In this document: positions 31,252 to 45,699 of the stretch, piece by piece
How positions within the stretch are numbered: position 1 is the first letter of the stretch
Layout of the letters: every line of letters begins with the position of its first letter
Source: Candidatus Levyibacteriota bacterium
GTDB lineage: Bacteria > Patescibacteriota > Microgenomatia > Levybacterales > UBA12049
Assembly (NCBI GenBank): GCA_038254115.1
Contig: JBBSGK010000003.1
Location: 9,624 to 73,623 of the forward strand
Length of the DNA stretch: 64,000 nt
Direction of reading: 5' to 3'
Notes under the pieces: model-generated
What the model was told of the DNA's origin: nothing
Seen by the model: the letters and a program-made list of their open reading frames with translations, nothing else
The model's database searches: none
Position numbers and translations under genes: made by a program

Positions 31252-31304
31252 ACACTACTATAAGTCATTTGTCAACGGAGGTCAAAGCAATTACAATTAA
31301 TATT

Positions 31305-32951
31305 GTGTCTAGTTTGCTGAAAACTCATAAAGCTGCCTTTGGTGTCGCTTTTCTTATATTAATCGGCGCGTTTCTCCGTTGCTATAATTTAAATTGGGGG
31401 GCTCCATTTTATTTCCATCCGGATGAGCGCAATATCGCATCAAGCATTACTCAGCTTGTATTCCCGACTCAGATGAACCCTCATTTTTTTGCATACGGCT
31501 CTTTGCCAATCTACATCATTTATTTTAGCGGTATGGTTACGAATTTTTTTTCTTCGTGTCACTTATCAATTACAAATTGCAAATTGTATAATGTCGAATT
31601 TGGGCACGCAATAATTATCAGCCGTTTTTATTCTGCTTTATTCTCCACCTTACTTATTCCTTTTATTTTTCTACTTGGAAAAAAAATGCACGGTCCCAAA
31701 ACAGGCCTTACAGCAGCTTTCCTTGCAACCTTTAGCGCAGGATTTATTCAGTTTGCCCACTTCGGAACCTTTGAAATGTGGCTTACATTTTTCAGTGTTC
31801 TCCTTTTTTGGTTTTGCCTTGAAGAATTAAATAAAAAAAATATCCATCACCTTTTTATTCTGCCAGCTATTTTTGCAATACTTTTGGCAATCAAAGTATC
31901 GTCCATTGCGCTACTGCCTCTTCCGCTTCTTATGATACTAATAAAAAAGCAAAACTCCTCCAAAAAACTTAAAGAGATAATTTTATTTATTGTTACTTTA
32001 TCGATAGTTTACGCAGTGACCAATCCTTTCGTCTTTTTGACAACACAAGAATTTCTCTCAAGTATAAGATATGAAGGCGGCGTTGTATTGGGCACGCTGG
32101 ACGTTTTCTACACACAATCTTTTTATAACACTATGCCAATAGTTTTCCAATTTCTCAATATTTTCCCATTTCTATTAAATCCTCTTTTTACTATTATATT
32201 CATCCCTGCCTTTTTTTATCTAATCTATAAAGGGATTAAAACAAAAAACCTATTGTTTTTATTTCTTATTTCTTACTTCTTACTTCTTTTCCTCCCCCAA
32301 GCTTTTCTTTTTGCGAAATGGACACGATACATGGTGCCGACATTGCCATTTATCTACCTTATAGTTGCAATAGCATCTATTGATTTTCTCAATATGTTAT
32401 CTAAATCCAAACGAGTATTTAGTATAAAGTATTTCGTATTAAGTATTTTCATATTGTTCACTATTGCATTCGGGATTTCTTATTTCATAACCGCATTTGT
32501 AAAACCTGATACCCGAATCGAAGCAGGCAAATTTACTCAAGCCAAAATCCAGCAAACCAGAAGAGTTTTGACTGAGCCTTATGACTTAGGAATAATCCCT
32601 TTCAATTCCCATCTCCAATATATTAACTCATTCAATTTCTACAATTTGGATCCAGAAAATAATGCTTTAAATGAAGAACTAAAAACAAAAATTTTCCAAT
32701 CTGACTATATTATATTACCAAGCCAAAGGCTTTTAAAATCCCGTTTATTAAATCCAAATAAATTCCGAAAAGGTCATGGAATTTACTCTTTATTAACAAA
32801 AGAGGCGCTTGGCTACCAAAAAATTTATGAAACACCTTGTGATATTTTCTGCAAAATCACTTACCTAAATAGTCCGGTTTTTTCATTTGAGGAGACAGCA
32901 AGTGTATTTGAAAGACCCACTGTTTTTATATTTAAAAAAGTTGCCAAATGA
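31305..32951 (+). CDS. GT-C superfamily membrane glycosyltransferase (ArnT/PMT, GT39/GT83-like)
   Basis: multi-TM; N-terminal NWGAPFYFHPDERNIAS loop paralogous to the next gene; start set at in-frame GTG 31305 because ORF-track start 31104 would overlap the convergent gene. Confidence 0.55.
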   Translation: MSSLLKTHKAAFGVAFLILIGAFLRCYNLNWGAPFYFHPDERNIASSITQLVFPTQMNPHFFAYGSLPIYIIYFSGMVTNFFSSCHLSITNCKLYNVEFGHAIIISRFYSALFSTLLIPFIFLLGKKMHGPKTGLTAAFLATFSAGFIQFAHFGTFEMWLTFFSVLLFWFCLEELNKKNIHHLFILPAIFAILLAIKVSSIALLPLPLLMILIKKQNSSKKLKEIILFIVTLSIVYAVTNPFVFLTTQEFLSSIRYEGGVVLGTLDVFYTQSFYNTMPIVFQFLNIFPFLLNPLFTIIFIPAFFYLIYKGIKTKNLLFLFLISYFLLLFLPQAFLFAKWTRYMVPTLPFIYLIVAIASIDFLNMLSKSKRVFSIKYFVLSIFILFTIAFGISYFITAFVKPDTRIEAGKFTQAKIQQTRRVLTEPYDLGIIPFNSHLQYINSFNFYNLDPENNALNEELKTKIFQSDYIILPSQRLLKSRLLNPNKFRKGHGIYSLLTKEALGYQKIYETPCDIFCKITYLNSPVFSFEETASVFERPTVFIFKKVAK

Positions 32952-34684
32952 AACTTATATTTTCAAAAGAAAAATTGATTTTATTCTTAATCCTAATTCT
33001 TGCCGCTTTTTTCCGCTTCTATAACGTCAATTGGGATGGCGGACACCAACTGCATCCTGACGAGAGGGCTATTGTCATGACAGTTGATAAGCTTCAAATT
33101 CCAAAAAACTTTTCTGATTTTTTGAGACCGGAAAGCTCGTGGAATCCGAAATTTTTTGCTTATGGTAGTTTTCCGATGTATCTACTTTTTGCTACAGGAA
33201 ACATTGCCGGTATTTTCAATCCGCTGCTTGCGCACTACGGTTCAATTAACCTAATCGGGCGGATACTCTCAGCTTTTGCGGATATTGTTACGGTTTTTTT
33301 GATTTTCAAAATTTCACGCAAACTTTTTAATTCCTCAATTGGTTACCTAGCAGCATTTTTTTATACTGTAAGCGTTCTACCCATTCAGCTTTCGCATTTT
33401 TTTGCTGTCGATACCTTATTAACCTGCTTTATAACTGCAACTCTTTATTTGCTGATCTTGTTTTATGAAAAACCCACATCTTATAAATCTCTCCTAATTG
33501 GTCTTTTTTTCGGCCTTGCGCTTGCCACCAAAATTAGCGCGCTGGTTTTATTGGTTTCAATAGGTACTGCGCTTATTGCCGATTTTATTCTGATTTTTAT
33601 AAAAAATCCCCATAAGCCAACGCATTGGTTGCCGAATTTGCCTGCTTTTTTAAAACACCTACTGCAATACGCGTTTCTTATTTTCTCAACTACTTTTATT
33701 GCTTTTATTTTTTTTGAGCCTTATGCCGTAATTGATTTTAAAAATTTTTGGGTCCAAACGCTCCAGCAATCGGCATTGACCAAGGATCCTTTTTACTTTC
33801 CATACACCCTTCAATATGTCGGTAAAATCCCCTATGCCTATGAATTCAAAAATGTTTTTCTTTGGGGACTTGGGCCAGTATTGGGAATACTAACGTTACT
33901 GGGAATGTTTTATTTTATTTATCTAAATTTTAAAAAAGGCCGGAGCCCACAGTTTACAAAGGCATTAATTATCTTAATATTTGTGGTTTCTTATGTTGCT
34001 GTTGTTGGCCGCTTTGCCGTTGGATTTATGCGCTATATGTTACCCGTATATCCTTTTTTTGCCCTCTTTGCATCTTTGCCCTCCTACCACTTTTATCAAA
34101 TTCTAAATAACCGCATAAAAAATATTTACACGCTTTTGGTTATTAGTTATTTGTTATTCGTTATTGTTTTAATCTGGCCTCTTAGCTTTATGCATATATA
34201 TAGCAAAAATAATACCAGAGTTGATGCCACTCTCTGGATAAATCAATTCATTCCGAAAGGCAAAACTGTGGCAATTGAACATTGGGACGATGGATTACCT
34301 CTGACTGATCAATCAAACTATAACATCCTTACATTGACTCTGTATGACCCTGATACGCAGCAAAAGTGGGAAACGATCAATCAACAGCTTAGGCATTCTG
34401 ACTACATAATTATAGCCTCAAATAGACTCTATACTCCTCTTCTGAGATTAACAGATTGTCAAGCACTACCACCTGATAGATGCTATCCTAAAACTTCTGC
34501 TTATTATAAAGATCTATTTGCTGAAAAACTTGGATTTCAAAAAGTTGCTGAATTCACAAACTATCCAACTGTTCCTATGCTAAATCTTCCTATAGATGAT
34601 CAGGTTGCAGACGAATCTTTTACTGTCTACGATCATCCAAAAGTAATGATCTTTCAAAAAACTGCCTCTCGTAGTAGAATATAG
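32948..34684 (+). CDS. GT-C superfamily membrane glycosyltransferase, paralogue of the preceding gene
   Basis: 578 aa, >10 TM; YNVNWDGGHQLHPDERAIVM loop motif; 4-nt overlap with upstream gene. Confidence 0.55.
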   Translation: MKLIFSKEKLILFLILILAAFFRFYNVNWDGGHQLHPDERAIVMTVDKLQIPKNFSDFLRPESSWNPKFFAYGSFPMYLLFATGNIAGIFNPLLAHYGSINLIGRILSAFADIVTVFLIFKISRKLFNSSIGYLAAFFYTVSVLPIQLSHFFAVDTLLTCFITATLYLLILFYEKPTSYKSLLIGLFFGLALATKISALVLLVSIGTALIADFILIFIKNPHKPTHWLPNLPAFLKHLLQYAFLIFSTTFIAFIFFEPYAVIDFKNFWVQTLQQSALTKDPFYFPYTLQYVGKIPYAYEFKNVFLWGLGPVLGILTLLGMFYFIYLNFKKGRSPQFTKALIILIFVVSYVAVVGRFAVGFMRYMLPVYPFFALFASLPSYHFYQILNNRIKNIYTLLVISYLLFVIVLIWPLSFMHIYSKNNTRVDATLWINQFIPKGKTVAIEHWDDGLPLTDQSNYNILTLTLYDPDTQQKWETINQQLRHSDYIIIASNRLYTPLLRLTDCQALPPDRCYPKTSAYYKDLFAEKLGFQKVAEFTNYPTVPMLNLPIDDQVADESFTVYDHPKVMIFQKTASRSRI

Positions 34685-34687
34685 GCA

Positions 34688-35725
34688 ATGATTAAAAAGG
34701 TCCTCATTACCGGCGGAACCGGATTTTTGGGTGTCCATCTGGCAAGATATTTATTAAAAAAAGGCTATAAGGTTACGCTTTTTGACTTAAGCGAGCTGGA
34801 TGCGAAAGATCTAATTGGAAAAGTAAATGTAATATTAGGCGACATAAGAAATAGTAAAGCAGTCGACAAAGCGCTTACAGGACAAGATTATGTTGTTCAT
34901 GCTGCTGCTGCCCTACCAATACAACTGGATAAAAAAATAATCTTCGGTGTAAATATTGACGGCACAAAAAATATCCTAAGAGCAGCTCTTAAAAATAAGG
35001 CTAAGCGCTTGGTCTTTATTTCATCAACCGCAGTTTATGGTGTCCCAAAACATCTTCCCGAAACAGAAACAGCACCGCTTGATCCAATAGGTAATTATGG
35101 GGTCTCAAAAATTGAGGGAGAAAAACTATGTTTGGAGTATCAGAAAAAGGGATTACAAGTAAATATTATCCGCCCCAAAACTTTTTTGGGAACGGAAAGG
35201 CTCGGGGTATTTGAATTATGGTTTGAGGCTATATACAGCAATAAAAGAGTATTTATTTTGGGCGATGGACATAATAAATACCAACTTCTTGCAGTGACAG
35301 ATGTCATAGCTGCAATAGAAAAAGCTTTAATTTCAAAGGCAAATGGAGAAATATTCAATATCGGAGCAGAAAAATTTGGGACCTGGAGATCGGATCTTGG
35401 CTTTGTCGTAAAACATGCAAAATCAAAATCAAAAATCACCTCGCTCCCAACTCTGCCTTCTCAACTTATTTTACAATTGCTTGAGACACTTAGACTTTCG
35501 CCAATTGCCGCTTGGCATTACAAAACCATGCCTGTTGACTCGTATGTTTCAATTGATAAAGCAAAAAAGCTTCTAAAATGGGCTCCTAAAAAATCAAATC
35601 AGGATTTGTTCCTTGAAAGTTACATATGGTATAAACAAAACAGAGGGAAAGTTTTGGGCCGGACCGGCAACACGCATAGAGTCGGCTGGAATTTTAAGAT
35701 ACTCAATTTAATTTCAAGGTTTTAG
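34688..35725 (+). CDS. NAD-dependent sugar epimerase/dehydratase (extended SDR)
   Basis: VLITGGTGFLGVHL Rossmann motif; YGVSK catalytic YxxxK. Confidence 0.85.
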   Translation: MIKKVLITGGTGFLGVHLARYLLKKGYKVTLFDLSELDAKDLIGKVNVILGDIRNSKAVDKALTGQDYVVHAAAALPIQLDKKIIFGVNIDGTKNILRAALKNKAKRLVFISSTAVYGVPKHLPETETAPLDPIGNYGVSKIEGEKLCLEYQKKGLQVNIIRPKTFLGTERLGVFELWFEAIYSNKRVFILGDGHNKYQLLAVTDVIAAIEKALISKANGEIFNIGAEKFGTWRSDLGFVVKHAKSKSKITSLPTLPSQLILQLLETLRLSPIAAWHYKTMPVDSYVSIDKAKKLLKWAPKKSNQDLFLESYIWYKQNRGKVLGRTGNTHRVGWNFKILNLISRF

Positions 35726-35736
35726 GCTTCAGCAAT

Positions 35737-36312
35737 ATGAATATTGGTTTTGATTTAGATAAAATTTTTATTGATTATCCGCCTTTTGTGTCACCCCGTG
35801 TAATGGACAAACTTTATAAAAAGAAGGACAACGGCGTACTGCTTTATAGAATCCCGTCTTACCCTGAGCAGCTATTAAGACGCGCATCTCACATGCCATT
35901 TCTTAGGCCTGCAATTAAACAAAATTTGGAGTTTCTAAGAAGAATTTCTAAAAAAGATAATAAGCTCTATCTTATATCTAGCCGTTTTAAGTTCCTCGAG
36001 AAACGTACTGCCAAGCTCATAAAGCGGTACGAATTAGATCAAATATTTGATGAGATGTTTTTTAACTATGCCAACTTTCAGCCCCATATCTTCAAGCAGG
36101 AAATTATCAACAACTTGAATCTTGATATCTATGTGGATGATGACCTTTCTTTAATAAGGCACGCAGCAAAAACTAATGTTAAAACTAAATTCTTCTGGCT
36201 AAATACTTTCGGGGAAAAACATATTTTGCCCCAAAACATATTCGAAATCTCAACACTCGAAGAAATATTTAAATTACAAAATCAGAAATCCGAATATCGA
36301 AATCCGAAATAA
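35737..36312 (+). CDS. HAD-superfamily-like hydrolase (tentative)
   Basis: N-terminal GFDLDKIF resembles HAD motif I (DxD); YVDDD near C-terminus resembles motif IV; 3' end encoded by a CCGAAAT heptamer array. Confidence 0.35.
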   Translation: MNIGFDLDKIFIDYPPFVSPRVMDKLYKKKDNGVLLYRIPSYPEQLLRRASHMPFLRPAIKQNLEFLRRISKKDNKLYLISSRFKFLEKRTAKLIKRYELDQIFDEMFFNYANFQPHIFKQEIINNLNLDIYVDDDLSLIRHAAKTNVKTKFFWLNTFGEKHILPQNIFEISTLEEIFKLQNQKSEYRNPK

Positions 36313-36420
36313 TTTTCGTAATTACAATTTCATAACTGTTGAATGATTTGAGGATTTGAGATTGTTTCGAATTCCTGCCTGCCGGAAGGCAAGGTCGAGC
36401 TTTGTGCTTCGAATTTGAGT
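36283..36420. repeat. heptamer arrays (CAGAAAT CCGAATA TCGAAAT CCGAAAT; ATTTGAG units) plus a GC-rich bulged hairpin (36378-36394) in the HAD-like/DUF2298 spacer
   Basis: first array encodes the C-terminus of the HAD-like gene. Confidence 0.55.
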
Positions 36421-36427
36421 ATAACTT

Positions 36428-38632
36428 ATGATTCCATCTGATATTCACGCAGTTTTGCAGTGGTGGTTGATCATCCTTCTTTTGGGAAGTGGTTTTTTGC
36501 CTCTCACCTTTCTGCTGTTTGATAAATTTTTTGACCGGGGATATATTTTTTCAAAAATCTTTGGAATTGCTTTTACCTCTTATGCAATTTTTTTACTTGG
36601 AGTTTTACATATAGCACCGTTTAATCAACTCTTCTCTATCATTATATTTCTCGTTATTTCAGCTTGGTTTTTTGCGCTGAGTCCAATAAGATTGGAGTTG
36701 ATTTCGATTTTAAAATCAAATTTAAAAATATTTATTTTTGAAGAACTACTTTTTCTAGCGGCTCTGTTTTTCTGGGCATATATTCATACGTTTAATCCCG
36801 ACATTCATGGCCTTGAAAAATTCATGGACTTTGGTTTTATAAACTCATTACTTAGGTCCAATTATTTCCCGCCTAAAGACATGTGGTTTACCCCATACCC
36901 TATCAACTATTATTATTTTGGGCACTTATCAACGGCTGTATTAACCAAGTTATCAGGTGTTCCTGCAAGAATTACTTTCAATCTAATGCTCTCAACTATA
37001 TTTGCGTTTTGTCTGAGCGAGACTTTTTCTTTGGGGGCAAATCTTTATGTTTTTATGCAAAATAATAAAAAGGTGTCACTTATCAAATCTTTTGTCACAG
37101 GCCTTTTGACAGCCTCTCTTGTTACTTTTTCAGGAAATCTTCATATCCTTTATACATTCTTCAAGCCTTACACCGGAGAAAATCCGGTTCCCTTATGGCA
37201 GTTGCCTTTTATGCCCTTTAGTTTTCCCAACTCTTATTGGTACCCAAATGCAACCCGCTTTATCCATAACACGATTCATGAATTCCCCATTTACTCCTGG
37301 GTAGTTGCGGACCTGCACGGACATGTTTTGGATATTCCTTTCGTTCTGCTAACAGTCGCCGTGCTGCTTTCAATATTTATATCCAAATCTGAAACAAGCC
37401 CAGCTACTCTAAATGCAAACAACAAACATTCTTTGAATTTAAAATATTTTAATTTTGATATTGTTTCAAGTTTAAATATTAAAATTCCATATTTACTACT
37501 AATTGGTTTCCTTCTCGCAATCATGTATATGACCAATGCGTGGGACGGAGGAATTTATCTGCTGCTTGCCTCCCTTGTGCTTTTTTCACTCTATTACAAG
37601 AGACTATCTACGTTCTTTTTTTCTCTTTTTGTAGTTTTTATAAGCTTGATTGCATTTTCCATGCCATATAGTTATTTTTTTAAGCCCTTTGCCTCAGGGA
37701 TAGGCGTACTTTGTGCGCCTAACTTTCTAACTAAAATAGGTAAACTGGGTCCATTTCTTTTTGAGAAGGAACATTGTCAGCATTCATTCTGGTGGCAATT
37801 ACTTATTCTTTACAGCTTTTTCTATTTTTTTGTTATTTCTTTCGGAATTTTTGCATATCGCGCAAAAAAATTCTTAAAAACAGATATATTTATATTTCTT
37901 CTTATCATTCTGTCTACATTTCTTATAATCTTGCCTGAATTCATTTACCTCAAAGATATTTATCCCGCACACTATAGAGCCAATACGATGTTCAAGCTGG
38001 TTTTTCAATCGTTCATCATGCTCTCTATTTCAACGGGATATATTATTACAAGAATAGTGTCCAATATTAGATTGAAATCTTTACGTGCTGGTAAAAAAGT
38101 ACTATTTATTAGTTATCTATTATTAGTTAGCGGTTTAATCTCCCTTGTTCTGACTTATCCATTCCTCGCAATTAGATCCTATTATGGTGATCTGAAAACA
38201 CAAAAAAATCTTGATGGGACTGTCTATCTTCAAACACTTTATCCTTATGATTACGAAGCAATTTCGTATATAAACAAAAATATAAAAAGCCAGCCCGTCA
38301 TTCTTGAAGCGCAAGGTGACTCATATACAGATTTTGGGAGGATTTCAGCAAATACAGGACTCCCAACTGTCCTCGGCTGGACTGTGCATGAATGGCTCTG
38401 GCGGGGAACATATGATATTCCTGCACCAAGAATTGATGAGATCAAAATAATGTATGAAACTCAGGATTTAAATATTGCTAAAAACCTGCTCAAGAAATAC
38501 AAGATCACATATATATTCATAGGGTCAATGGAATTTCAAAAATACCCTACGCTTTCTGAACCCAAATTTCAAAAGCTTGGAAAACTAATTTACCAAAATC
38601 AGAACACTAAAATCTACAAAATCTCCTATTGA
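36428..38632 (+). CDS. DUF2298 (Chlor_Arch_YYY domain) polytopic membrane protein, putative GT-C-like glycosyltransferase
   Basis: 734 aa, >15 TM helices; conserved PINYYYFGH triple-Tyr motif; family size and topology match. Confidence 0.55.
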   Translation: MIPSDIHAVLQWWLIILLLGSGFLPLTFLLFDKFFDRGYIFSKIFGIAFTSYAIFLLGVLHIAPFNQLFSIIIFLVISAWFFALSPIRLELISILKSNLKIFIFEELLFLAALFFWAYIHTFNPDIHGLEKFMDFGFINSLLRSNYFPPKDMWFTPYPINYYYFGHLSTAVLTKLSGVPARITFNLMLSTIFAFCLSETFSLGANLYVFMQNNKKVSLIKSFVTGLLTASLVTFSGNLHILYTFFKPYTGENPVPLWQLPFMPFSFPNSYWYPNATRFIHNTIHEFPIYSWVVADLHGHVLDIPFVLLTVAVLLSIFISKSETSPATLNANNKHSLNLKYFNFDIVSSLNIKIPYLLLIGFLLAIMYMTNAWDGGIYLLLASLVLFSLYYKRLSTFFFSLFVVFISLIAFSMPYSYFFKPFASGIGVLCAPNFLTKIGKLGPFLFEKEHCQHSFWWQLLILYSFFYFFVISFGIFAYRAKKFLKTDIFIFLLIILSTFLIILPEFIYLKDIYPAHYRANTMFKLVFQSFIMLSISTGYIITRIVSNIRLKSLRAGKKVLFISYLLLVSGLISLVLTYPFLAIRSYYGDLKTQKNLDGTVYLQTLYPYDYEAISYINKNIKSQPVILEAQGDSYTDFGRISANTGLPTVLGWTVHEWLWRGTYDIPAPRIDEIKIMYETQDLNIAKNLLKKYKITYIFIGSMEFQKYPTLSEPKFQKLGKLIYQNQNTKIYKISY

Positions 38633-38669: not shown

Positions 38670-38996
38670 ATGTTTCAACCTTGGGGAAATTGTGTTCAAG
38701 ATGGAGTTGCAACGCTCCGGTGCCTTCCTGTCATTTTTCATAACGTAGTAAACGGTGCTTTAATATTTGTAGGAGTTGTTGCTCTATTTCTTATAATTTA
38801 TTCCGGTATCAGGCTGATCCTATCAGGCGGTGATCCCAAACAAGTCGAAGCAGCCCGGAAAATTATGAACTACGCAATACTGGGCGCCATACTTGTCCTA
38901 TCTTCTTTTGCAATTTTGTACTTTATCGCCTATGTTACCAACTCTAAAGACTGCATTAGCAATATTGAATCTATCAGCACGGGGGGATGCAAATAA
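38670..38996 (+). CDS. VirB2/TrbC-like T4SS pilin (tentative)
   Basis: 108 aa: leader, then two hydrophobic helices separated by a short polar loop (SGGDPKQVEAARK), the VirB2/TrbC architecture; located immediately upstream of VirB3/VirB4-like genes. Confidence 0.45.
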   Translation: MFQPWGNCVQDGVATLRCLPVIFHNVVNGALIFVGVVALFLIIYSGIRLILSGGDPKQVEAARKIMNYAILGAILVLSSFAILYFIAYVTNSKDCISNIESISTGGCK

Positions 38997-39100
38997 TTAT
39001 CCATAAGTTTTCACAAGCGAGCCTTACCATGTATTCCGTTTGACCTACTTTGTAGGAGTTGCATTGCTATTTTTCACGTTATACACTTTTTGTACTAGCA

Positions 39101-40387
39101 ATGGACCAACACCCAATACCACAAAACGTAACAGGGTTTCAATTTAAACTTATAGGGGCGATGACTGTCAAACAATTTGGCTATGTTGCAGTAGGAGTAA
39201 TTGCGGCATTCGTTACTTACTATATACCTATACATGGATTCTTTGCGATAATTTTTAAAATCTTTATGATTCCTCTCCTAGGAGCAAGCGGACCCGTGCT
39301 GGCATTTGTTCCTGTTGACGGCAGACCAATCGATGTAATGACAGGCAATTTTGTAAAAGCTCTTTTATCTCCAAATCAATATGTGTATCACAAGGGTGTT
39401 AAAAAGTTTAGCTTTTCAACCGTATCCCTCTCCAAGCCAAAGCCCACATCGGCTGAACACAAAGCGCCCAGTACCCCAAAGCAAAAAATGATTAATGAAA
39501 GAGGACATGAATTACAAAAACTTTTAATAAGAAGTTCCGGGACAAAAATAAAAAACGCTCAGGATGAACATGAAGCTGCATTTCTTAACTCTATTTTGTC
39601 AACCCAACCGGCAGCTGCGCCTCTCCCTGCCTCAACTCATTCTCCTCTGCCCACAGTCTCTGTGGAATTACCAACTCCCGAGCCTAAAGTTGCGGAAACT
39701 AAGCCACTAATTATTTCACCGCCTACAAATAAACCGACTCCAGAGATTCTTTCCGAAAAGGAGGAAGCTCTAAAAAAACAATTGGATTTTACCAAGCGGG
39801 AAGAGACATCTCCGCATTCTACAACGGATCTTTCCGCAATTCATCAAAAAGCGGGTATTTTAGAAAAACAGGTTCAGGAAATTCATACGCAGAAACAGGC
39901 GCTCGAGGAAGAAATTCTGCAATTAAAAAAACAGCTTTCAACTCAGCAAACAACGACTACTTCCCCAGCTGCAAAAAACGCTATCGTAAGCACGCCTACT
40001 CCCTTCCCCCCCCTTAAGCAACAACCCCCACATGTACGAAGCGTCCCAAAAGAACAAAACAAGCGCCTTGGAATTTTTGTATCTGATACTCCAAATGTAG
40101 TCTCGGGCATGGTTAAGGATGCGCGGGGAAATGTGCTACCCAACATTCTTGTTGAAATAAAAGACAAGGCGAGCAATCCAGTTAGGGCATTCAAAACAAA
40201 CGCTCTTGGCAACTTTGCATCGGCAACGCCACTTGCAGCAGGAACTTATACGATTACGCTTGAAGATTTGAAAAAGCAGCATACATTTGATTCAATTCAG
40301 ATTACAGCAAATGACCAAATTATGCTTCCTATTGAAATCATATCTTATGACAAACGTGAAGCCCTGCGAAAGGATTTGTTTAGCTAA
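39101..40387 (+). CDS. PrgI/VirB3-like membrane domain fused to a coiled-coil, Pro-rich linker and a C-terminal carboxypeptidase-regulatory-like (Cna-B-type) beta-sandwich domain
   Basis: N-terminus FQFKLIGAMTVKQFGYVAVGVIAAF... resembles PrgI family (IIGPLTLRQ.IYL.IGGG) two-TM module; C-terminus GMVKDARGNVLPNILVEIKD...TNALGNFAS...AGTYTITL; start chosen at ATG 39101. Confidence 0.45.
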   Translation: MDQHPIPQNVTGFQFKLIGAMTVKQFGYVAVGVIAAFVTYYIPIHGFFAIIFKIFMIPLLGASGPVLAFVPVDGRPIDVMTGNFVKALLSPNQYVYHKGVKKFSFSTVSLSKPKPTSAEHKAPSTPKQKMINERGHELQKLLIRSSGTKIKNAQDEHEAAFLNSILSTQPAAAPLPASTHSPLPTVSVELPTPEPKVAETKPLIISPPTNKPTPEILSEKEEALKKQLDFTKREETSPHSTTDLSAIHQKAGILEKQVQEIHTQKQALEEEILQLKKQLSTQQTTTTSPAAKNAIVSTPTPFPPLKQQPPHVRSVPKEQNKRLGIFVSDTPNVVSGMVKDARGNVLPNILVEIKDKASNPVRAFKTNALGNFASATPLAAGTYTITLEDLKKQHTFDSIQITANDQIMLPIEIISYDKREALRKDLFS

Positions 40388-40390
40388 GCT

Positions 40391-41068
40391 ATGAGCGCTG
40401 CCCAAAAAATTCATGCGTCAACCCAAAAGTTTACTGAGATAGTAGACTTTGTTGAAAACGTGGTTGTTATGGAGGGAGGCAGCGCATGTCTTGTAATTGA
40501 AATTACAGCAAGTAATTTTGCTCTTTTGTCCAAAAGGGAACAGGACAGCAGAATTTTTTCATACGCATCTCTTCTTAATTCCCTATCCTTCCCTATTCAA
40601 ATATTAATACGCAATAAAAGAATTGACATTACCTCATACATAAAGGACCTTGAGGATGTTATTAAAAGCAGCAAAAATCCACGGCTTCAGACATATATCG
40701 GTTATTACCGTGATTTTGTTCAGGAGATGGTAACTGTCAACGTTGTTTTAAACAAGTCTTTTTACATAATTATTCCTTTTTCTTCGCTTGAGATGGGGAT
40801 CTCAGGCGCAAAACAAGCGACGCAAAAAAATCAAAAAACAAATGCACAGACGAAGAATCTACCTGAAGGAGCAGCAAAAAGCCTGCAGTCAAAGGCCCAA
40901 ACAGTACTTACACAATTGCAAAAATTTGCAGTGTCTGCGAAAATTCTCGAGCGCGAAGATTTAATTAAACTCTTTTATGACATTTACAATAATGGGGCAA
41001 ATATCGAAGTCGAGCAGATTGAGCCGGCTGGCGGAGCATCAATTGTAACCGGAGGAGCAAAAACATGA
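40391..41068 (+). CDS. hypothetical protein resembling the extreme N-terminal module of Gram-positive-type VirB4 ATPases (possible split VirB4, part 1)
   Basis: VVMEGGSACLVIEITASNFALLSKREQDSRIFSYASLL...QILIRNKRID resembles the start of PrgJ/Tn916-Orf16-type VirB4 proteins; stop overlaps next start (ATGA). Confidence 0.35.
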   Translation: MSAAQKIHASTQKFTEIVDFVENVVVMEGGSACLVIEITASNFALLSKREQDSRIFSYASLLNSLSFPIQILIRNKRIDITSYIKDLEDVIKSSKNPRLQTYIGYYRDFVQEMVTVNVVLNKSFYIIIPFSSLEMGISGAKQATQKNQKTNAQTKNLPEGAAKSLQSKAQTVLTQLQKFAVSAKILEREDLIKLFYDIYNNGANIEVEQIEPAGGASIVTGGAKT

Positions 41069-43245
41069 AATTGCCTTTTTTTAAAAAATCATCAACCCTC
41101 CCCGCAGGTACACCTTCTGCTGCTAGCGGCATGAAGCAAACCGCAGCCCCTACCAAAACCGCCGGGGCAAGCAAATCTATTGAGTCTGTAGAAAAAGGCC
41201 TAACTTCCATAATTGATATTATTGCTCCTTCGTCAGTTGAGGTTGATTTTCGCTACATCCGCGTTGGAGACTCTCTATACACAACGCTTTTTATCGCAGG
41301 GTATCCCCGCTATGTTTCCCCTGGTTGGCTTCAGCCAATTATTGATTACGATCACACATTGGACATTTCTATGTTCTGTTACCCAACGTCGTCATCAGAC
41401 GTTCTCACAGATTTGAAGCGGAAAATTGGGGAAATGCAGGCAACGCTTTCATCTGATGCGGAGTCGGGAAAAGTAACGGATCCCACTGTTGAAGCGGCGC
41501 TTGAGGATGCTCTGGGACTTCAGGAGGAACTTGCGAAAGGAATTGAGAGATTTTTCCAGTTTGGATTTTACATTACTGTCTCTGCTCTCGACCTGCCCGA
41601 ACTTCAGCAAACTGTAAAAGAACTTCAAACCACCCTTGGCTCTCTTCTTCTTGCTGCAAAAACAGCAACTCTTCAAATGGAAGAAGGATTCAAGTCAACC
41701 TTGCCCTTGGGACTTGATAGACTCTATATTACCCGCAATATGGACACATCATCCCTTGCGTCAACCTTTCCTTTTACCTCGGCTATTCTGACGCAGAATA
41801 AAGGGGTAATGTATGGTGTTAACCAGCAAAATGGATCCCTGATTATTTTTGACCGTTTTTCTTTGGAAAACGCCAATGAGGTAGTCTTGGGTAAATCAGG
41901 TGCCGGAAAATCTTATTGCATTAAACTTGAGATTGCGCGGCAATTTATGCTTGGGGCTGAGGTAATTGTAATTGATCCCGAGGGTGAATACGAGACATTA
42001 ACGCCTGCATTAGGTGGGGAAGTTGTTGATTTCTCATCAAGTTCTGAGATAAAAATTAATCCTTTTGACCTTTCTGATGTTTACGAGGAAGGCGAGAATG
42101 AATTGGGACTCAAAATCTTGTCTTTGCATGGATTATTAAAACTGATTACTGGCGATTTAGACGCAGAACATGACGCAATTTTGGACAGGGCGCTTATTGA
42201 GTGCTACCGCCAAAAAGGAATTACGACAGATCCACTGACACAAAGAAAGCAACCTCCACTTATGGAAGACTTATACAAAACTCTTTTGGGAATGGAGACC
42301 CAACCGGCAAAAGATCTCGCATATAGATTAGAAAAATTCATCAAAGGATCAGCTGCCGGTATATTTAACCAGCAGTCAAATTTTGAGATCAATAACCCGC
42401 TTACTGTTTTTTCAATCCGCAATCTGGAAGAGGAACTCCGCCCTGTTGCTATGCATATTATTCTTGATTTTGTCTGGACAAAGATAAAAAAGAATTTAAA
42501 AAAGCGTATTCTAATTCTGGACGAAGGCTGGTATATGATGAAGTATCAGGATTCTGCCTCATTTGCATACTCTATCGCCAAGCGGGCCCGAAAATACTAC
42601 CTCGGCATGACAACCGCAACGCAGGATGTTGAGGATTTTCTTAAAAATGAATATGGAAAGGCTGTTTTGACCAATTCTTCAATCCAAATCCTTTTAAAAC
42701 AAGGCACTGCTGAGGTTGACATGATTGCCAATACTTTTTACCTTTCCGAAGGTGAGAAAGCGTTACTTTTATCATCAGATGTAGGGGAGGGATTATTTTT
42801 TGCAGGACAGAACCATGTAGCTATGAAAGTTTTTGCTGCTCCTTTTGAACATGAATTAATCACATCAAACCCAATTGAGCTTTTAAAGCGCCAAGAGGAC
42901 AAAGAAGCTGCTATTACCCAGTCCAGACTTGAAGATGGCGGACCCGTTCAGGCTACTATCCCTCACGCAGAACCACCCATTCCTCCTACGCCAGCGCCTT
43001 CCGCTCCCATTAATCCTGCTATAGCTTCAATTGACACGCCCCCGGTGGTTACAAATGGACCCACAGCATTACCTTCTCAATCACCATATAGCGCTTCGAA
43101 TCCACATGCATCACCAGTTTCTCCCGTTGCTTCATCACCGCCTGATACACATCCCTCGCCTGAAATTATTCCACCCGTTATGTCAACTTCTACACAATCA
43201 CCCACCGCCCCCATTGTGACAACGCCAGTTTTACCAAAGGTTTAA
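41065..43245 (+). CDS. VirB4/TrbE/CagE-family T4SS ATPase with Pro/Ser/Thr-rich C-terminal extension
   Basis: Walker A VLGKSGAGKSY, Walker B ILDEGWYMM (DEAW-type), motif C RKYYLGMTTATQDVEDF; N-terminal CagE_TrbE_VirB-like region IIAPSSVEVDFRYIRVGDSLYTTLFIAGYPRYV. Confidence 0.85.
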   Translation: MKLPFFKKSSTLPAGTPSAASGMKQTAAPTKTAGASKSIESVEKGLTSIIDIIAPSSVEVDFRYIRVGDSLYTTLFIAGYPRYVSPGWLQPIIDYDHTLDISMFCYPTSSSDVLTDLKRKIGEMQATLSSDAESGKVTDPTVEAALEDALGLQEELAKGIERFFQFGFYITVSALDLPELQQTVKELQTTLGSLLLAAKTATLQMEEGFKSTLPLGLDRLYITRNMDTSSLASTFPFTSAILTQNKGVMYGVNQQNGSLIIFDRFSLENANEVVLGKSGAGKSYCIKLEIARQFMLGAEVIVIDPEGEYETLTPALGGEVVDFSSSSEIKINPFDLSDVYEEGENELGLKILSLHGLLKLITGDLDAEHDAILDRALIECYRQKGITTDPLTQRKQPPLMEDLYKTLLGMETQPAKDLAYRLEKFIKGSAAGIFNQQSNFEINNPLTVFSIRNLEEELRPVAMHIILDFVWTKIKKNLKKRILILDEGWYMMKYQDSASFAYSIAKRARKYYLGMTTATQDVEDFLKNEYGKAVLTNSSIQILLKQGTAEVDMIANTFYLSEGEKALLLSSDVGEGLFFAGQNHVAMKVFAAPFEHELITSNPIELLKRQEDKEAAITQSRLEDGGPVQATIPHAEPPIPPTPAPSAPINPAIASIDTPPVVTNGPTALPSQSPYSASNPHASPVSPVASSPPDTHPSPEIIPPVMSTSTQSPTAPIVTTPVLPKV

Positions 43246-43264: not shown

Positions 43265-45088
43265 ATGGATGACACAGATACATTGGAACCCGAAGCAGGA
43301 GAGGAGGCCTCAGATTCAACCCCTGAAGAAAGTCAGGAGCCTGACCAAAGTAGCAACAGTAGCCAAGAAACTCAAACAAATCAAAGCCCACAATCCAGTG
43401 GATCTGGCCAAAAAGACCAAACGAGGCAAAAACCCGGCGGCATGAGTAGATTGGGAAAGCAGTTTACAAAAGGAGCCGGCGGTCCCGGCGGAGGAGGGGG
43501 CCCTGGAAAGGACATAGCCAAAAAGGGGCTAGGTAAACTTGGGATTGGCAAGAAAGATAGCGGGGAATCCCGTGGGCAAGAGTTAAAAAACCGCGGGAAA
43601 GAAGCCGGGAAGAAGATGGGGAAAAAAGCGGGAAAAAAAGTTGGAAATTTTGCTGCCCAGCTTGGAAAGAAAGGGGTTGCTGCAGCTGTAGAAAATCCTT
43701 ATGTTGCAGGAGCACTAGCCATTATACTACTTATTGTTGTCCTAATATTTATTATTATCCAAGGTAACGCTGCAGCAGGAGATGAGGCAAATCCATTAAC
43801 TATTACCAAATCAGGTCCCGCTGAGGCAAAAGTAAATGATAAGCTTACTTACCAAATTGCTGTTGCGTATGCAGGAACCGTACAGGACATAACTGTCACT
43901 GACCATGTCCCTGACGGAGCTGAATTTGATCCCTCAACTCCTCCCCCCGCCCACTATGATCCTGCAACGAGGACTGTTACATGGAGCATAAAAGAAATAA
44001 GTCCTCCTAACGCTGGAGGTGGTAACCCTTCAGCGAACCAAGTAAACATCATAGGCGACTCTCTAACCGATCAATCAAGGGCTGATATACAAGATCAGCT
44101 CCCCGGAGCTGTTATTGACGCGAAGACTAGCCGTCCATGGAGCGCTGGTGTAAGCATAGTTTCCGACCTTAAAAATAGCAATAAGCTGACTCCCGTCGTT
44201 GTATTTGCTCTTGGCACAAATAACTCTTCTTTGTCCACTGGGGATATAGATAATCTTTTAAATGCTTCCCAGGGCAGTCAGATCATTCTTGTTACTACTT
44301 ATAACCTCGTTCACACCGATTGGGCGAACAATGTAAATAGCACTTTAAAGGCTGCAGCAAGCGCTCATGCCGACAGGATAAAGATTGCTGATTGGGCTGC
44401 AGTAGCCAACCCCGGACTTATTGATAATTCTGATGGGCTTGGAGTGCATCCAACGATTCCATCCGGTAATCAGGCATTTGCAAAGGTTATTGCAAGCGCA
44501 GTATCAGGCGGCGCAAGCGGAGGAATAAGCCATCCAAACACTACCCTCACTCTTAACTTAAAAGCGACCACAGATAATACTTATGTAATCAACCAAGCAG
44601 TGGCAACAGCTATAGGCGGCGTGCCAGACAGCAGCGGTGGGGGTGGAGGCGGCGGGGGTGGGCCTGTTGACGGAAATTATGTTCCCCCGAACCAAAACGA
44701 TTGTGGCGGAAAGTACAAATTTAACAATCCTGTTGGAAACTTCGGTGATCCGAATTGCAACTTTGACAAAAATGCCCTTCATGAAATGCTGACGCAGCAA
44801 GATCCCGCAAATGCTGATTTTTGGTTTTTAAAAGTCATTCCTTGCGAGAGCAGTTATGATCCCAACTCATATTCTTCGCATCAGTCAATCGGCACACCTG
44901 ATCTAGCGGGAGCGTGGGGATTATATCAAATGGGAAGCAGTAAGCCTCCAGGCAGTCCGCCGCCCTCGCCTGGCAATAACGGACCTAATGATCGGGGGGA
45001 TGTTAATTGGCCTGTTCAGACAAGCAACGCTGTTACATACAGTAAGAAAATCAGTAGCATAGGAGCATATTGGGCCTGTGGAAGATGA
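43265..45088 (+). CDS. multidomain envelope protein: disordered cytoplasmic N-terminus, TM, DUF11 repeat domain, SGNH/GDSL esterase domain, C-terminal family-1 lytic transglycosylase (SLT)-like domain
   Basis: TM AGALAIILLIVVLIFIII; DUF11-like LTITKSGPAEAKVNDKLTYQIAV...ITVTDHVPDGAEF; GDSL motif IIGDSLTD plus DGLGVHPT (DxxH); SLT motif CESSYDPNSYSS...AGAWGLYQM (ES...AGAxGLMQ). Confidence 0.65.
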   Translation: MDDTDTLEPEAGEEASDSTPEESQEPDQSSNSSQETQTNQSPQSSGSGQKDQTRQKPGGMSRLGKQFTKGAGGPGGGGGPGKDIAKKGLGKLGIGKKDSGESRGQELKNRGKEAGKKMGKKAGKKVGNFAAQLGKKGVAAAVENPYVAGALAIILLIVVLIFIIIQGNAAAGDEANPLTITKSGPAEAKVNDKLTYQIAVAYAGTVQDITVTDHVPDGAEFDPSTPPPAHYDPATRTVTWSIKEISPPNAGGGNPSANQVNIIGDSLTDQSRADIQDQLPGAVIDAKTSRPWSAGVSIVSDLKNSNKLTPVVVFALGTNNSSLSTGDIDNLLNASQGSQIILVTTYNLVHTDWANNVNSTLKAAASAHADRIKIADWAAVANPGLIDNSDGLGVHPTIPSGNQAFAKVIASAVSGGASGGISHPNTTLTLNLKATTDNTYVINQAVATAIGGVPDSSGGGGGGGGGPVDGNYVPPNQNDCGGKYKFNNPVGNFGDPNCNFDKNALHEMLTQQDPANADFWFLKVIPCESSYDPNSYSSHQSIGTPDLAGAWGLYQMGSSKPPGSPPPSPGNNGPNDRGDVNWPVQTSNAVTYSKKISSIGAYWACGR

Positions 45089-45129: not shown

Positions 45130-45699
45130 ATGAAAATCAAAAAAGAACATCTGATCTTGATTATATTCTCAGCAGTGATGCTTCTTATAGTTTTTGCTAT
45201 TGCGTACTTGGCATTGACAACTCCCACGAAACCGAATAATAAACCTATTGGTACTATTTCTCCTTCCCCTGTTTACACTGGCCACATTGCTATTTCTCCT
45301 ACTCCTGTAAATCCAGGAGTACCACCTGTCTCTTACAGTTCTGATGCAACTGATAGGCTAATAGAAAAAGTCCAAAACCATCCGCAGCTTTCGGATTCTG
45401 ATATTGCTGCAAAGCAAAAAATACTCTCTTTTTTGCCACAGGGCAAAACATCCGGATATGTATATCAGTCCTCAACTGTTCAAATTGAATACCTCAAATC
45501 CCCGGACGCTTTCCTGGCCGAAATCCTGACCATTGATATCGCGCAATCTAAAAAAGACGCAGTCAACTGGTTTAAGGTACAAGGAATGAGTCAAAAGGGT
45601 ATTTGCGACCTCCCTGTTTCTTTTTATCTCAATTCTAGAGTCGCAAATCAATTAAGAAATTTAAATATTAAATTTAGTCCGTTGGCTGAAGGGTGTTAA
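45130..45699 (+). CDS. secreted/membrane-anchored hypothetical protein
   Basis: 189 aa, N-terminal signal anchor, Pro-rich linker. Confidence 0.4.
   Translation: MKIKKEHLILIIFSAVMLLIVFAIAYLALTTPTKPNNKPIGTISPSPVYTGHIAISPTPVNPGVPPVSYSSDATDRLIEKVQNHPQLSDSDIAAKQKILSFLPQGKTSGYVYQSSTVQIEYLKSPDAFLAEILTIDIAQSKKDAVNWFKVQGMSQKGICDLPVSFYLNSRVANQLRNLNIKFSPLAEGC

What the first reader, a model, noticed from the sequence alone, without database searches (positions are those of the whole stretch)
40391..43245. VirB4 ATPase apparently split into two translationally coupled ORFs, with a Pro/Ser/Thr-rich C-terminal tail on the ATPase
The 225-aa ORF (VVMEGGSACLVIEITASNFALLSKREQDSRIF...QILIRNKRID) matches the pattern at the very start of PrgJ/Tn916-Orf16-type VirB4 proteins.

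The next ORF begins, after a 45-aa S/T/A-rich leader, at the point where canonical VirB4 continues (IIAPSSVEV...YTTLFIAGYPRYV).

The ORFs overlap by ATGA (41065-41068). This is either a genuine two-subunit VirB4, a frameshift/pseudogenisation, or an assembly error.

The ATPase also ends with about 110 residues of PxP/S/T-rich low complexity (42900-43245), odd for a cytoplasmic motor.
Basis: inference. Interest (0 to 1): 0.55.

Follow-up and report, generated by a model that had tools for sequence, protein, structure and literature searches.

The report
Two-gene VirB4 secretion motor (TrsD + ATPase)
The secretion-system motor protein VirB4 really is encoded here as two adjacent genes. This is a stable, widespread and already published arrangement in these tiny bacteria (the TrsD/"TraC-like" protein next to VirB4), not a sequencing error or a dead gene.

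Summary
ORF1 (40391-41068, 225 aa) and ORF2 (41065-43245, 726 aa) overlap by ATGA, and a GGAGG lies inside the end of ORF1.

- **ORF2** is a VirB4 ATPase that lacks the first ~180 profile positions of full-length CD1110-type VirB4.
- **ORF1** supplies that missing piece. It is a TrsD/"TraC-like" (PF26593) protein. Its predicted fold matches only R388 VirB4 in the PDB.
- **Fused relatives** exist: natural 783-897 aa proteins in related Patescibacteria are colinear with ORF1 + ORF2.

The split is not an error. All 34 informative Levybacteria loci keep two genes, mostly with the same ATGA overlap. Non-synonymous change is low while synonymous sites are saturated. Staphylococcal pSK41 TrsD/TrsE breaks at the same profile position.

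The proline-rich C-terminal tail and the N-terminal leader are predicted to be disordered. They vary in length and sequence but are present throughout the clade.

The arrangement is published: Quiñonero-Coronel et al. 2025 reported 2,272 TrsD homologues in Patescibacteria, 1,664 of them next to virB4. The cluster sits next to dnaN and dnaA, as that paper describes.

Small extras are interleaved fused and split forms and conserved short end motifs.

The parts
40391..41068 (+). ORF1, 225 aa: a TrsD/TraD-family ('TraC-like', PF26593) protein, equivalent to the first subdomain of the VirB4 N-terminal domain. The folded part is aa ~10-203 and the C-terminal ~20 aa are flexible.
   Evidence: NCBIfam gives VirB4_plasma profile 104-238/894 (E 3e-7) and TrsD 12-200/201 (E 8e-4). 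hhalign against pSK41 TrsD gives 95% probability, E 3.6e-8. The AF2 model has pLDDT 84, and its top 14 PDB hits are all R388 TrwK/VirB4. It is 39% identical to aa 6-199 of the fused protein P0170. There are 1573 homologues, and the 120 best-scoring listed are mostly ~220-225 aa.
41047..41068 (+). Junction: GGAGGA Shine-Dalgarno sequence inside the ORF1 3' end, followed by the ATGA stop/start overlap.
   Evidence: Sequence. The ATGA overlap occurs in 19 of 34 related loci and a 1-nt overlap in 4 more. An SD core of at least 4 nt occurs in 21 of 34.
41065..41199 (+). ORF2 leader (aa 1-45): a conserved N-terminal octapeptide MKLPFFKK followed by a hypervariable low-complexity linker.
   Evidence: pLDDT is about 30. 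The motif M-[KN]-L-P-F-x-K-K is conserved in 118 relatives. Leader pN is 0.36-0.47, against 0.04-0.08 for the core.
41200..42936 (+). ORF2 core (aa ~46-624): the second half of the VirB4 N-terminal domain plus the C-terminal P-loop ATPase domain.
   Evidence: NCBIfam conju_CD1110 179-734/752, E 4.6e-115. Pfam P-loop_TraG, DUF87 and AAA_10. PDB 4ag5 (VirB4 C-terminal domain), E 2.5e-46, over aa 242-601. Core identity to relatives is about 90-97% in the rows shown.
42937..43245 (+). ORF2 C-terminal tail (aa ~625-726): Pro/Ser/Thr/Ala-rich, predicted disordered, ending in ...PVLPKV.
   Evidence: pLDDT 30-50. Tails in 120 relatives have a median of 75 aa and a maximum of 202 aa. Tail pN is about 0.5. 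A P-x-V-L-P-K-x C-terminal motif is seen in the closest relatives.
38670..38996 (+). VirB2-like T4SS pilin gene, part of the same cluster.
   Evidence: Pfam T4SS_pilin PF18895, E 2.7e-8.
39059..40387 (+). PrgI/VirB3-like membrane protein with a long linker and a CarboxypepD_reg domain, immediately upstream of ORF1.
   Evidence: Pfam PrgI, E 2e-7, and CarboxypepD_reg, E 2.3e-9. The same gene precedes the TraC-like/VirB4 genes in L037 and L039.
46311..47591 (+). M23 peptidase, a candidate cell-wall hydrolase of the cluster in the VirB1 role.
   Evidence: Pfam Peptidase_M23, E 7.7e-19. It is syntenic in L037 and in the Pontibacillus plasmid.

Best explanation
ORF1 and ORF2 are the two subunits of a naturally split VirB4 motor. 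It belongs to the chromosomal, oriC-proximal type IV secretion system of a Candidatus Levybacteria (Patescibacteria, Microgenomatia) bacterium. ORF1 (TrsD/'TraC-like') carries the first ~200 residues of the VirB4 N-terminal domain. ORF2 carries the rest of that domain plus the ATPase domain. The genes are co-transcribed, and ORF2 is translated from an SD sequence and an ATGA stop/start overlap inside ORF1, which should favour roughly equimolar synthesis (inferred). The two polypeptides are inferred to reassemble non-covalently into a VirB4-like protomer. By analogy with R388, that protomer uses its N-terminal domain to bind the VirB3/PrgI-like membrane protein encoded just upstream and to oligomerise at the membrane. 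The low-complexity leader and tail of ORF2 are flexible, fast-evolving extensions with short conserved end motifs. Their role is unknown; docking or tethering is a guess. Shown here: homology, complementarity of the two parts, colinearity with fused orthologues, conservation of the split, and purifying selection. Inferred: physical association, stoichiometry, coupling, and interaction with PrgI.
For: The two ORFs cover complementary parts of VirB4. ORF2 matches CD1110-family VirB4 only from profile position 179. ORF1 matches the preceding part of VirB4 models and the full TrsD model.

A fused relative is colinear with both. P0170 (787 aa) aligns to ORF1 over aa 6-199 (39% identity) and to ORF2 over aa 213-774 (59%), and covers the CD1110 profile 3-735 in one stretch. 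Of 240 related VirB4 sequences, 43 carry the domain fused. The fused locus (L037/L038) and the split locus (L039) share the synteny PrgI - [VirB4 parts] - ... - dnaN - dnaA.

Structure prediction agrees. The ORF1 model's top 14 PDB hits are all TrwK/VirB4, after which probability drops to 0.3. The ORF1+ORF2 concatenate model (pTM 0.73) superposes on full-length TrwK with target-normalised TM 0.72-0.75 over about 890 alignment columns.

The split is stable. All 34 Levybacteria-type loci that include ORF2 have two genes, 19 with ATGA. ORF1 pN is 0.07-0.21 while pS is 0.75-0.86, which is saturated. ORF1 has 1505 clusters at 50% identity.

The same break point and gene order occur in pSK41, where TrsE matches CD1110 positions 183-730, and in a Pontibacillus plasmid.

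Literature: TrsD is the most abundant T4SS component in Patescibacteria, adjacent to virB4 in 1,664 cases and essential in S. epibionticum (PMC12102498). In R388 the VirB4 N-terminal domain binds VirB3 and mediates dimerisation (PMC9259494).
Against: No experiment or direct interface prediction shows that ORF1 and ORF2 bind each other. The concatenate model was built as one chain with fused homologues in its alignment, so the domain packing partly reflects those homologues. Sequence similarity of ORF1 to VirB4 and TrsD models is weak (E 3e-7 and 8e-4), and no PDB sequence hit was found even with a profile. According to PMC12102498, TrsD is not next to virB4 in Gracilibacteria, so an obligate 1:1 partnership is not universal. 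Thirteen of 34 loci lack a recognisable SD, and several have gaps of 25-150 nt, so translational coupling is not strictly conserved.
Confidence: 0.88

Rival explanations
1. A frameshift, recent pseudogenisation or assembly error has broken a single virB4 gene.
For: The two frames differ by one base. Fused full-length relatives exist. A 29-nt indel separates a fused from a split orthologue, so indels at this linker do occur.
Against: 34 of 34 independent species-level genomes have the two-gene form, and most share the same ATGA overlap and SD. Both parts are under strong purifying selection although synonymous sites are saturated. ORF2 has its own conserved N-terminal motif MKLPFxKK, which makes sense only if it starts at this ATG. 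There are 1573 stand-alone ORF1 homologues.
Confidence: 0.02
2. ORF1 is an independent accessory protein. It would be a TrsD-family paralogue of the VirB4 N-terminus, acting for example as a regulator or chaperone, rather than a structural piece of the motor.
For: The function of TrsD/TraD has never been determined (PMC12102498). Many TrsD-like proteins carry long extra tails of up to ~500 aa with their own C-terminal motif. TrsD is unlinked from virB4 in Gracilibacteria.
Against: ORF2 lacks exactly the segment that ORF1 resembles, and the break point is the same as in pSK41. Fused and split forms alternate among close orthologues at the same locus. The concatenate model matches an intact VirB4.
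Confidence: 0.08
3. Programmed -1 ribosomal frameshifting at the overlap makes a full-length fusion protein from the two ORFs.
For: ORF2 is in the -1 frame relative to ORF1, and an A-rich run (GCAAAAACATGA) precedes the stop.
Against: There is no canonical X XXY YYZ heptamer, and the A-run is not conserved in relatives (for example ...ggaccaaagacATGA and ...gaagttcaagcATGA). Several relatives have intergenic gaps of 25-150 nt. The ATG, the SD and the N-terminal motif of ORF2 are all conserved, which indicates independent initiation.
Confidence: 0.02

Closest known systems
TrsD + TrsE of staphylococcal conjugative plasmids pGO1/pSK41 (TraD + TraE of pIP501); MPF_FATA class, pGO1 subclass
   Same: A ~225-aa TrsD-family protein lies immediately upstream of a VirB4 that lacks its first ~180 profile positions: TrsE matches CD1110 positions 183-730 and ORF2 matches 179-734. 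The gene order is the same: pilin-like, VirB3-like, TrsD, VirB4, membrane protein, cell-wall hydrolase. TrsE also starts with a hydrophobic-basic peptide, MIMAFLKKKK.
   Different: Sequence similarity is remote (hhalign E 3.6e-8; NCBIfam TrsD score 19 bits against a cut-off of 200). In pSK41 the genes are separated by 14 nt rather than overlapping. The pSK41 system is plasmid-borne with a relaxase and a coupling protein for conjugation. Here the cluster is chromosomal, next to dnaN/dnaA, and no relaxase was looked for or seen nearby. TrsE has no long Pro-rich tail.
Patescibacteria T4SS as surveyed by Quiñonero-Coronel et al. 2025 (PMC12102498), including the essential T4SS of Southlakia epibionticum
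   Same: A TrsD homologue lies next to virB4. VirB2-like pilin and PrgI/VirB3-like genes are nearby, an M23 peptidase lies downstream, and the cluster is chromosomal and close to dnaA.
   Different: Nothing essential differs; this window is one instance of what the paper surveys. As far as the sections I read show, the paper does not state that the cognate VirB4 lacks exactly the TrsD-like segment, or that fused and split forms coexist in Microgenomatia.
Full-length monoderm VirB4 (CD1110 family of Clostridioides CTn elements; fused Patescibacteria VirB4 such as P0170)
   Same: The domain content and order are the same when ORF1 and ORF2 are read together.
   Different: These are one polypeptide with a linker of about 13 aa. 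Here there are two polypeptides, with about 25 and 45 extra flexible residues at the break, plus a C-terminal tail of about 100 aa.
TrwK/VirB4 of plasmid R388 (PDB 7O41-7O43, 8RTB, 8RTD)
   Same: The overall fold matches: target-normalised TM 0.72-0.75 for ORF1+ORF2, and the ORF1 model alone hits only this protein.
   Different: It comes from a diderm MPF_T system, is a single chain, and is 11-14% identical. The partner contacts (VirB3, VirB8 tails) are known only for R388 and are extrapolated here.

Membership tests
VirB4 family T4SS ATPase (ORF2) | C-terminal P-loop ATPase domain of the VirB4/TraC type, with a Walker A motif | tested here: met
   Pfam P-loop_TraG, E 4e-25, and DUF87/AAA_10. 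PDB 4ag5 VirB4 C-terminal domain, E 2.5e-46. GKSGAGKS is present in the sequence. NCBIfam conju_CD1110 scores 385.6 bits, above the cut-off of 325.
VirB4 family T4SS ATPase (ORF2) | Complete N-terminal domain on the same polypeptide | tested here: not met
   ORF2 starts at CD1110 profile position 179 of 752. The missing part is encoded by ORF1.
VirB4 family T4SS ATPase (ORF1 + ORF2 together) | Whole-protein architecture superposable on a solved full-length VirB4 | tested here: met
   The concatenate AF2 model against TrwK 8rtd_O gives E 9e-31 and target-normalised TM 0.74 over 892 alignment columns. This is a predicted single-chain model, so it indicates fold and architecture, not association of the two chains.
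TrsD/TraD family (NCBIfam NF041427) / Pfam PF26593 'TraC-like' (ORF1) | Sequence match to the family model | tested here: inconclusive
   NF041427 matches over its full length (12-200/201), but at 19.3 bits, far below the curated cut-off of 200. That model is built on Firmicutes plasmid proteins. hhalign of the ORF1 family profile against pSK41 TrsD gives 95% probability, E 3.6e-8. PF26593 is recorded for all listed homologues, including the 100%-identical P0001, and is named 'TraC-like'. It is absent from the local Pfam copy, so it could not be rescored.
TrsD/TraD family (ORF1) | Stand-alone ~200-230 aa protein encoded directly upstream of an N-terminally short VirB4 | tested here: met
Patescibacteria-clade T4SS (MPF_FATA-related) | virB4 with a TrsD homologue, a VirB3/PrgI-like gene and a VirB2-like pilin nearby, chromosomal, often near dnaA | tested here: met
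   Pfam hits for pilin and PrgI. dnaN and dnaA lie at 48639-51263. The closest genomes are Candidatus Levybacteria. The description is in PMC12102498.
Patescibacteria-clade T4SS | Phylogenetic placement of VirB4 inside the Patescibacteria clade of the published tree | not tested
   Only a rough NJ tree of close relatives was made. The published reference set was not available.
Functional two-subunit motor | Physical association of the two polypeptides and ATPase activity | not testable with these tools
   This needs biochemistry or a multimer structure prediction with interface confidence scores.

The most novel reading that the evidence does not exclude
The split may be an adaptive design rather than a neutral domain-boundary break. 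On this reading, the ATPase subunit's conserved N-terminal peptide (M-[KN]-L-P-F-x-K-K, shared in spirit with staphylococcal TrsE and absent from fused forms) and its conserved C-terminal end motif act as tethered docking peptides. These peptides would control when, and in what stoichiometry, the TrsD-like subdomain joins the motor. One possibility is that only the VirB3-bound 'central' protomers of a VirB4 double ring receive it.
Probability: 0.1. Interest if true: 0.5.

Novelty: already known. Interest (0 to 1): 0.2.

Why it matters
The finding is useful mainly for annotation. The 225-aa 'hypothetical protein' upstream of virB4 in Levybacteria and other Patescibacteria should be read as the N-terminal subdomain of VirB4 (TrsD/TraC-like), and the short VirB4 should not be flagged as truncated or frameshifted. 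The Patescibacteria T4SS is essential for epibiotic growth in the one tested species, and nobody knows what TrsD does. The complementarity shown here, together with natural fused and split orthologues at the same locus, gives a simple working hypothesis: TrsD is part of the motor's membrane- and VirB3-binding domain. It also provides ready-made constructs to test that hypothesis. None of this changes current understanding.

Tried and rejected
- Local Pfam found nothing for ORF1 except a chance CENP-I hit, even at E 10, because PF26593 is not in the local copy.
- Sequence searches of the PDB with ORF1 and with its family profile found nothing. Only fold comparison linked it to VirB4.
- The search for related loci with the diverse alignment A1 failed because no stretch was conserved enough. 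It was rerun with the single protein.
- An exact look-up of ORF1 in the assembly index found no record.
- That tree is rough, and one 'split' leaf (P0414) is a partial protein, so the count of at least 5 fusion/fission changes is only indicative.
- Programmed frameshifting was considered and rejected: there is no slippery heptamer, the A-run is not conserved, and ORF2 has a conserved independent start.
- The main text of Guglielmini et al. 2014 does not mention TrsD. The statement of remote homology is taken from PMC12102498, which cites that paper.
- The pELF plasmid paper's 'TraD' is a VirD4-like protein and is irrelevant here.
- A literature search for PF26593 found nothing.
Full report
**1. 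What is in the sequence**

ORF1 runs 40391-41068 (+) and encodes 225 aa. ORF2 runs 41065-43245 (+) and encodes 726 aa. They overlap by ATGA, and ORF2 is in the -1 frame relative to ORF1. GGAGGA lies 8 nt upstream of the ORF2 ATG. It encodes the Gly-Gly of the ORF1 C-terminal '...IVTGGAKT', a motif conserved among ORF1 relatives.

**2. What the two ORFs are**

- ORF2 is a VirB4 ATPase. Pfam finds P-loop_TraG, DUF87 and AAA_10.
  - NCBIfam conju_CD1110 gives E 4.6e-115, above its curated cut-off. The match starts only at profile position 179 of 752.
  - The solved VirB4 C-terminal domain 4ag5 matches aa 242-601 at E 2.5e-46.
- ORF1 matches the part of VirB4 that ORF2 lacks.
  - NCBIfam VirB4_plasma covers profile 104-238/894 (E 3e-7).
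  - The TrsD/TraD family model is covered end to end (12-200/201) but weakly, at E 8e-4.
  - A profile of 39 diverse ORF1 relatives (A1) aligns to pSK41 TrsD with 95% probability, E 3.6e-8.
- Sequence searches of the PDB with ORF1 found nothing.
- Fold comparison did link ORF1 to VirB4. An AlphaFold2 model of ORF1 (pLDDT 84, pTM 0.73-0.74) hits R388 TrwK/VirB4 chains in the top 14 places (probability 1.0, query-normalised TM 0.43-0.51, about 185 alignment columns). The next hit has probability 0.3.

**3. A fused relative shows the two ORFs are one VirB4**

Among ORF1's distant relatives, P0170 (787 aa, Patescibacteria) is a natural fusion. Its aa 6-199 align to ORF1 aa 7-200 at 39% identity, and its aa 213-774 align to ORF2 aa 53-613 at 59%. 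It covers the CD1110 profile 3-735 in one stretch.

A search with P0170 added more sequences to those already held from the ORF2 search, giving 240 related VirB4 proteins. Of these, 43 (783-897 aa) carry the TrsD-like domain N-terminally; the rest are short, split-type proteins.

P0170 is encoded in two independent assemblies with the gene order PrgI - fused VirB4 - M23 peptidase - ... - dnaN - dnaA. A close relative, P0415, has an ATPase-core distance of 0.11 from P0170. Its gene order is PrgI - 198-aa 'TraC-like' (PF26593) - 584-aa VirB4 with a 4-nt overlap - ... - dnaN - dnaA. The two junctions differ by a 29-nt indel in the linker.

A rough NJ tree interleaves fused and split forms in the Amesbacteria-like part. 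The 120 window-like sequences are all split. The tree is only indicative.

A model of ORF1 and ORF2 joined as a single chain has pLDDT 79 and pTM 0.73 (alignment A2, which includes fused homologues). It superposes on full-length TrwK with target-normalised TM 0.72-0.75 over about 890 alignment columns. This shows that the two ORFs together make up a complete VirB4 architecture. It does not prove that the two chains associate.

**4. Error, pseudogene or stable split?**

The evidence points to a stable split.

- ORF1 has 1573 homologues in the 90%-clustered database. The 120 best-scoring ones listed are mostly ~220-225 aa. At 50% clustering there are 1505 clusters.
- A scan of one genome per species returned 35 loci, mostly labelled Candidatus Levybacteria, with ORF1 identity of 49-89%.
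- In all 34 loci that reach ORF2 the two genes are separate. Nineteen have the ATGA overlap, four have a 1-nt overlap, and the rest have gaps of 1-150 nt or an uncertain ORF2 start call (two loci). Twenty-one keep an SD core.
- Against six relatives, pN is 0.07-0.21 for the ORF1 core. Against the five of these with a complete ORF2, pN is 0.04-0.08 for the ORF2 core. pS is 0.75-0.86, which is saturated. This means long-term purifying selection on both genes.
- Programmed frameshifting is unlikely: there is no slippery heptamer, the A-run is not conserved, and ORF2 has a conserved independent start.

**5. The leader and the tail**

In 120 ORF2 relatives the core is about 90-97% identical in the rows shown. 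The leader has a median of 58 aa and the tail a median of 75 aa (maximum 202 aa), and both vary in length and sequence. The tails are rich in P, A, T, S and Q. Both regions are predicted disordered in the model. Tail pN is about 0.5.

The tail is therefore a regular feature of this clade, not an anomaly of this assembly. Similar low-complexity segments occur in 5 of 59 window ORFs, and three of those are in the T4SS cluster. TrsD-like proteins of other Patescibacteria carry tails of up to ~500 aa.

Two small features stand out. The ATPase subunit begins with a conserved M-[KN]-L-P-F-x-K-K, which is absent from fused forms and echoed by pSK41 TrsE (MIMAFLKKKK). The closest relatives' tails end in P-x-V-L-P-K-x. 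The function of these motifs is unknown.

**6. Context**

The cluster reads as follows:

| Coordinates | Gene | Evidence |
|---|---|---|
| 38670 | VirB2-like pilin | |
| 39059 | PrgI/VirB3-like protein | |
| 40391 | ORF1 | |
| 41065 | ORF2 | |
| 43265 | 607-aa protein with a hydrophobic stretch (probable transmembrane segment, read by eye), DUF11 hit just below Pfam's cut-off | |
| 45130-46304 | two small ORFs (189 and 203 aa): no significant Pfam family for either | |
| 46311 | M23 peptidase | |
| 47593 | 351-aa ORF, no Pfam family | |
| 48639-49748 (-) | dnaN | |
| 49899-51263 (-) | dnaA | |

The order pilin, VirB3-like, TrsD, VirB4, membrane protein, hydrolase matches pSK41. There, TrsE matches CD1110 positions 183-730, the same break point as ORF2. 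A Pontibacillus megaplasmid shows the same split and synteny, at 37% identity to P0170.

**7. Comparison with the literature**

Quiñonero-Coronel et al. 2025 (PMC12102498) report that TrsD is the most abundant T4SS component in Patescibacteria. [quoted passage not shown] They found 2,272 homologues, 1,664 of them associated with virB4, and TrsD is essential in Southlakia epibionticum. They also report VirB2-like pilins, PrgI homologues, M23 peptidases and proximity to dnaA.

In R388 the VirB4 N-terminal domain (residues 15-400) mediates dimerisation and is wrapped by VirB3 (PMC9259494). From this I infer that ORF1 contributes to PrgI binding and membrane-proximal assembly. This inference was not tested.

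**8. Verdict**

The error and pseudogene alternatives are excluded. The arrangement is already described and named, so novelty is 'already known' and interest is low.

This analysis adds four modest points:

- The two genes are explicitly complementary, with the same break point as TrsD/TrsE.
- Fused and split orthologues coexist at the same locus in Microgenomatia.
- The SD-encoding Gly-Gly at the end of ORF1 serves two purposes.
- Conserved terminal peptides flank the disordered extensions of the ATPase subunit.

Noticed in passing
window 41065-41088 (ORF2 aa 1-8); relatives P0271-P0390; L036 26584 (pSK41 TrsE): Split-type VirB4 proteins begin with a conserved hydrophobic-basic octapeptide, M-[KN]-L-P-F-x-K-K (L3 83%, P4 75%, F5 75%, K8 69% of 118 sequences), followed by a hypervariable linker. 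pSK41 TrsE starts MIMAFLKKKK. The motif is absent from 43 fused VirB4 and 266 TrsD-like proteins.
   Followed up: partly
window 43222-43245 (ORF2 C-terminus); P0272-P0301; P0414-P0466; P0185-P0261: The variable disordered tails end in short conserved peptides. These are P-x-V-L-P-K-x in the closest ORF2 relatives, (K/M)-[VI]-R-L-[VI] near the C-terminus of Amesbacteria-like VirB4, and LPPI(A/P)EI at the end of long-tailed TrsD-like proteins of other Patescibacteria.
   Followed up: partly
L037 5001-7364 versus L039 4408-6755: Orthologous loci with identical synteny carry VirB4 either fused (787 aa) or split (198 + 584 aa, ATGA overlap). The junctions differ by a 29-nt indel. Fused and split forms interleave in a rough tree.
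   Followed up: partly
proteins P0428, P0429, P0432, P0438, P0439, P0480, P0482, P0491, P0507: Some Patescibacteria VirB4 homologues are 1158-1215 aa and carry intein/LAGLIDADG domains (PF14890, PF14528) inside the ATPase.
   Followed up: no
L030, from 6654: In one Levybacteria-type locus the VirB4 reading frame is 1336 aa long. This could be a very long tail or a fusion with the downstream gene.
   Followed up: no
window 48639-51263 (- strand): dnaN and dnaA lie immediately downstream of the T4SS cluster, so the cluster abuts the replication origin region, as reported for some Patescibacteria (PMC12102498).
   Followed up: yes
L040 (Pontibacillus sp. ALD_SL1 plasmid NZ_CP062975, 355436-358115): A Bacillota megaplasmid has the same split and gene order: pilin-like protein, then further upstream genes, then a 274-aa hypothetical protein, then a 621-aa CD1110-family VirB4 with an 11-nt overlap, then an M23-type peptidase. 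It is 37% identical to the fused Patescibacteria protein.
   Followed up: partly
window 39059-40387 and 43265-45088: The PrgI/VirB3-like protein is unusually long (442 aa), with a Pro/Thr/Glu/Lys-rich linker and a C-terminal CarboxypepD_reg domain. The gene after virB4 encodes a 607-aa protein with a Gly/Ser/Lys-rich N-terminus, one hydrophobic stretch (probable transmembrane segment, read by eye), a DUF11 hit just below Pfam's cut-off and a GDSL-like motif seen by eye. No VirB6 homologue was recognised.
   Followed up: no
window 31104-38632: Upstream of the cluster lie two PMT_2-type glycosyltransferases, an NAD-dependent epimerase and a large DUF2298 membrane protein. These are probably cell-envelope glycosylation genes.
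   Followed up: no
L001 6678-6733: In the closest relative (89% identity to ORF1), the two genes are in the same frame, separated by a stop codon. VirB4 starts at a TTG 54 nt downstream and lacks the MKLPF motif, so the junction has been remodelled even within the genus-level group.
   Followed up: no
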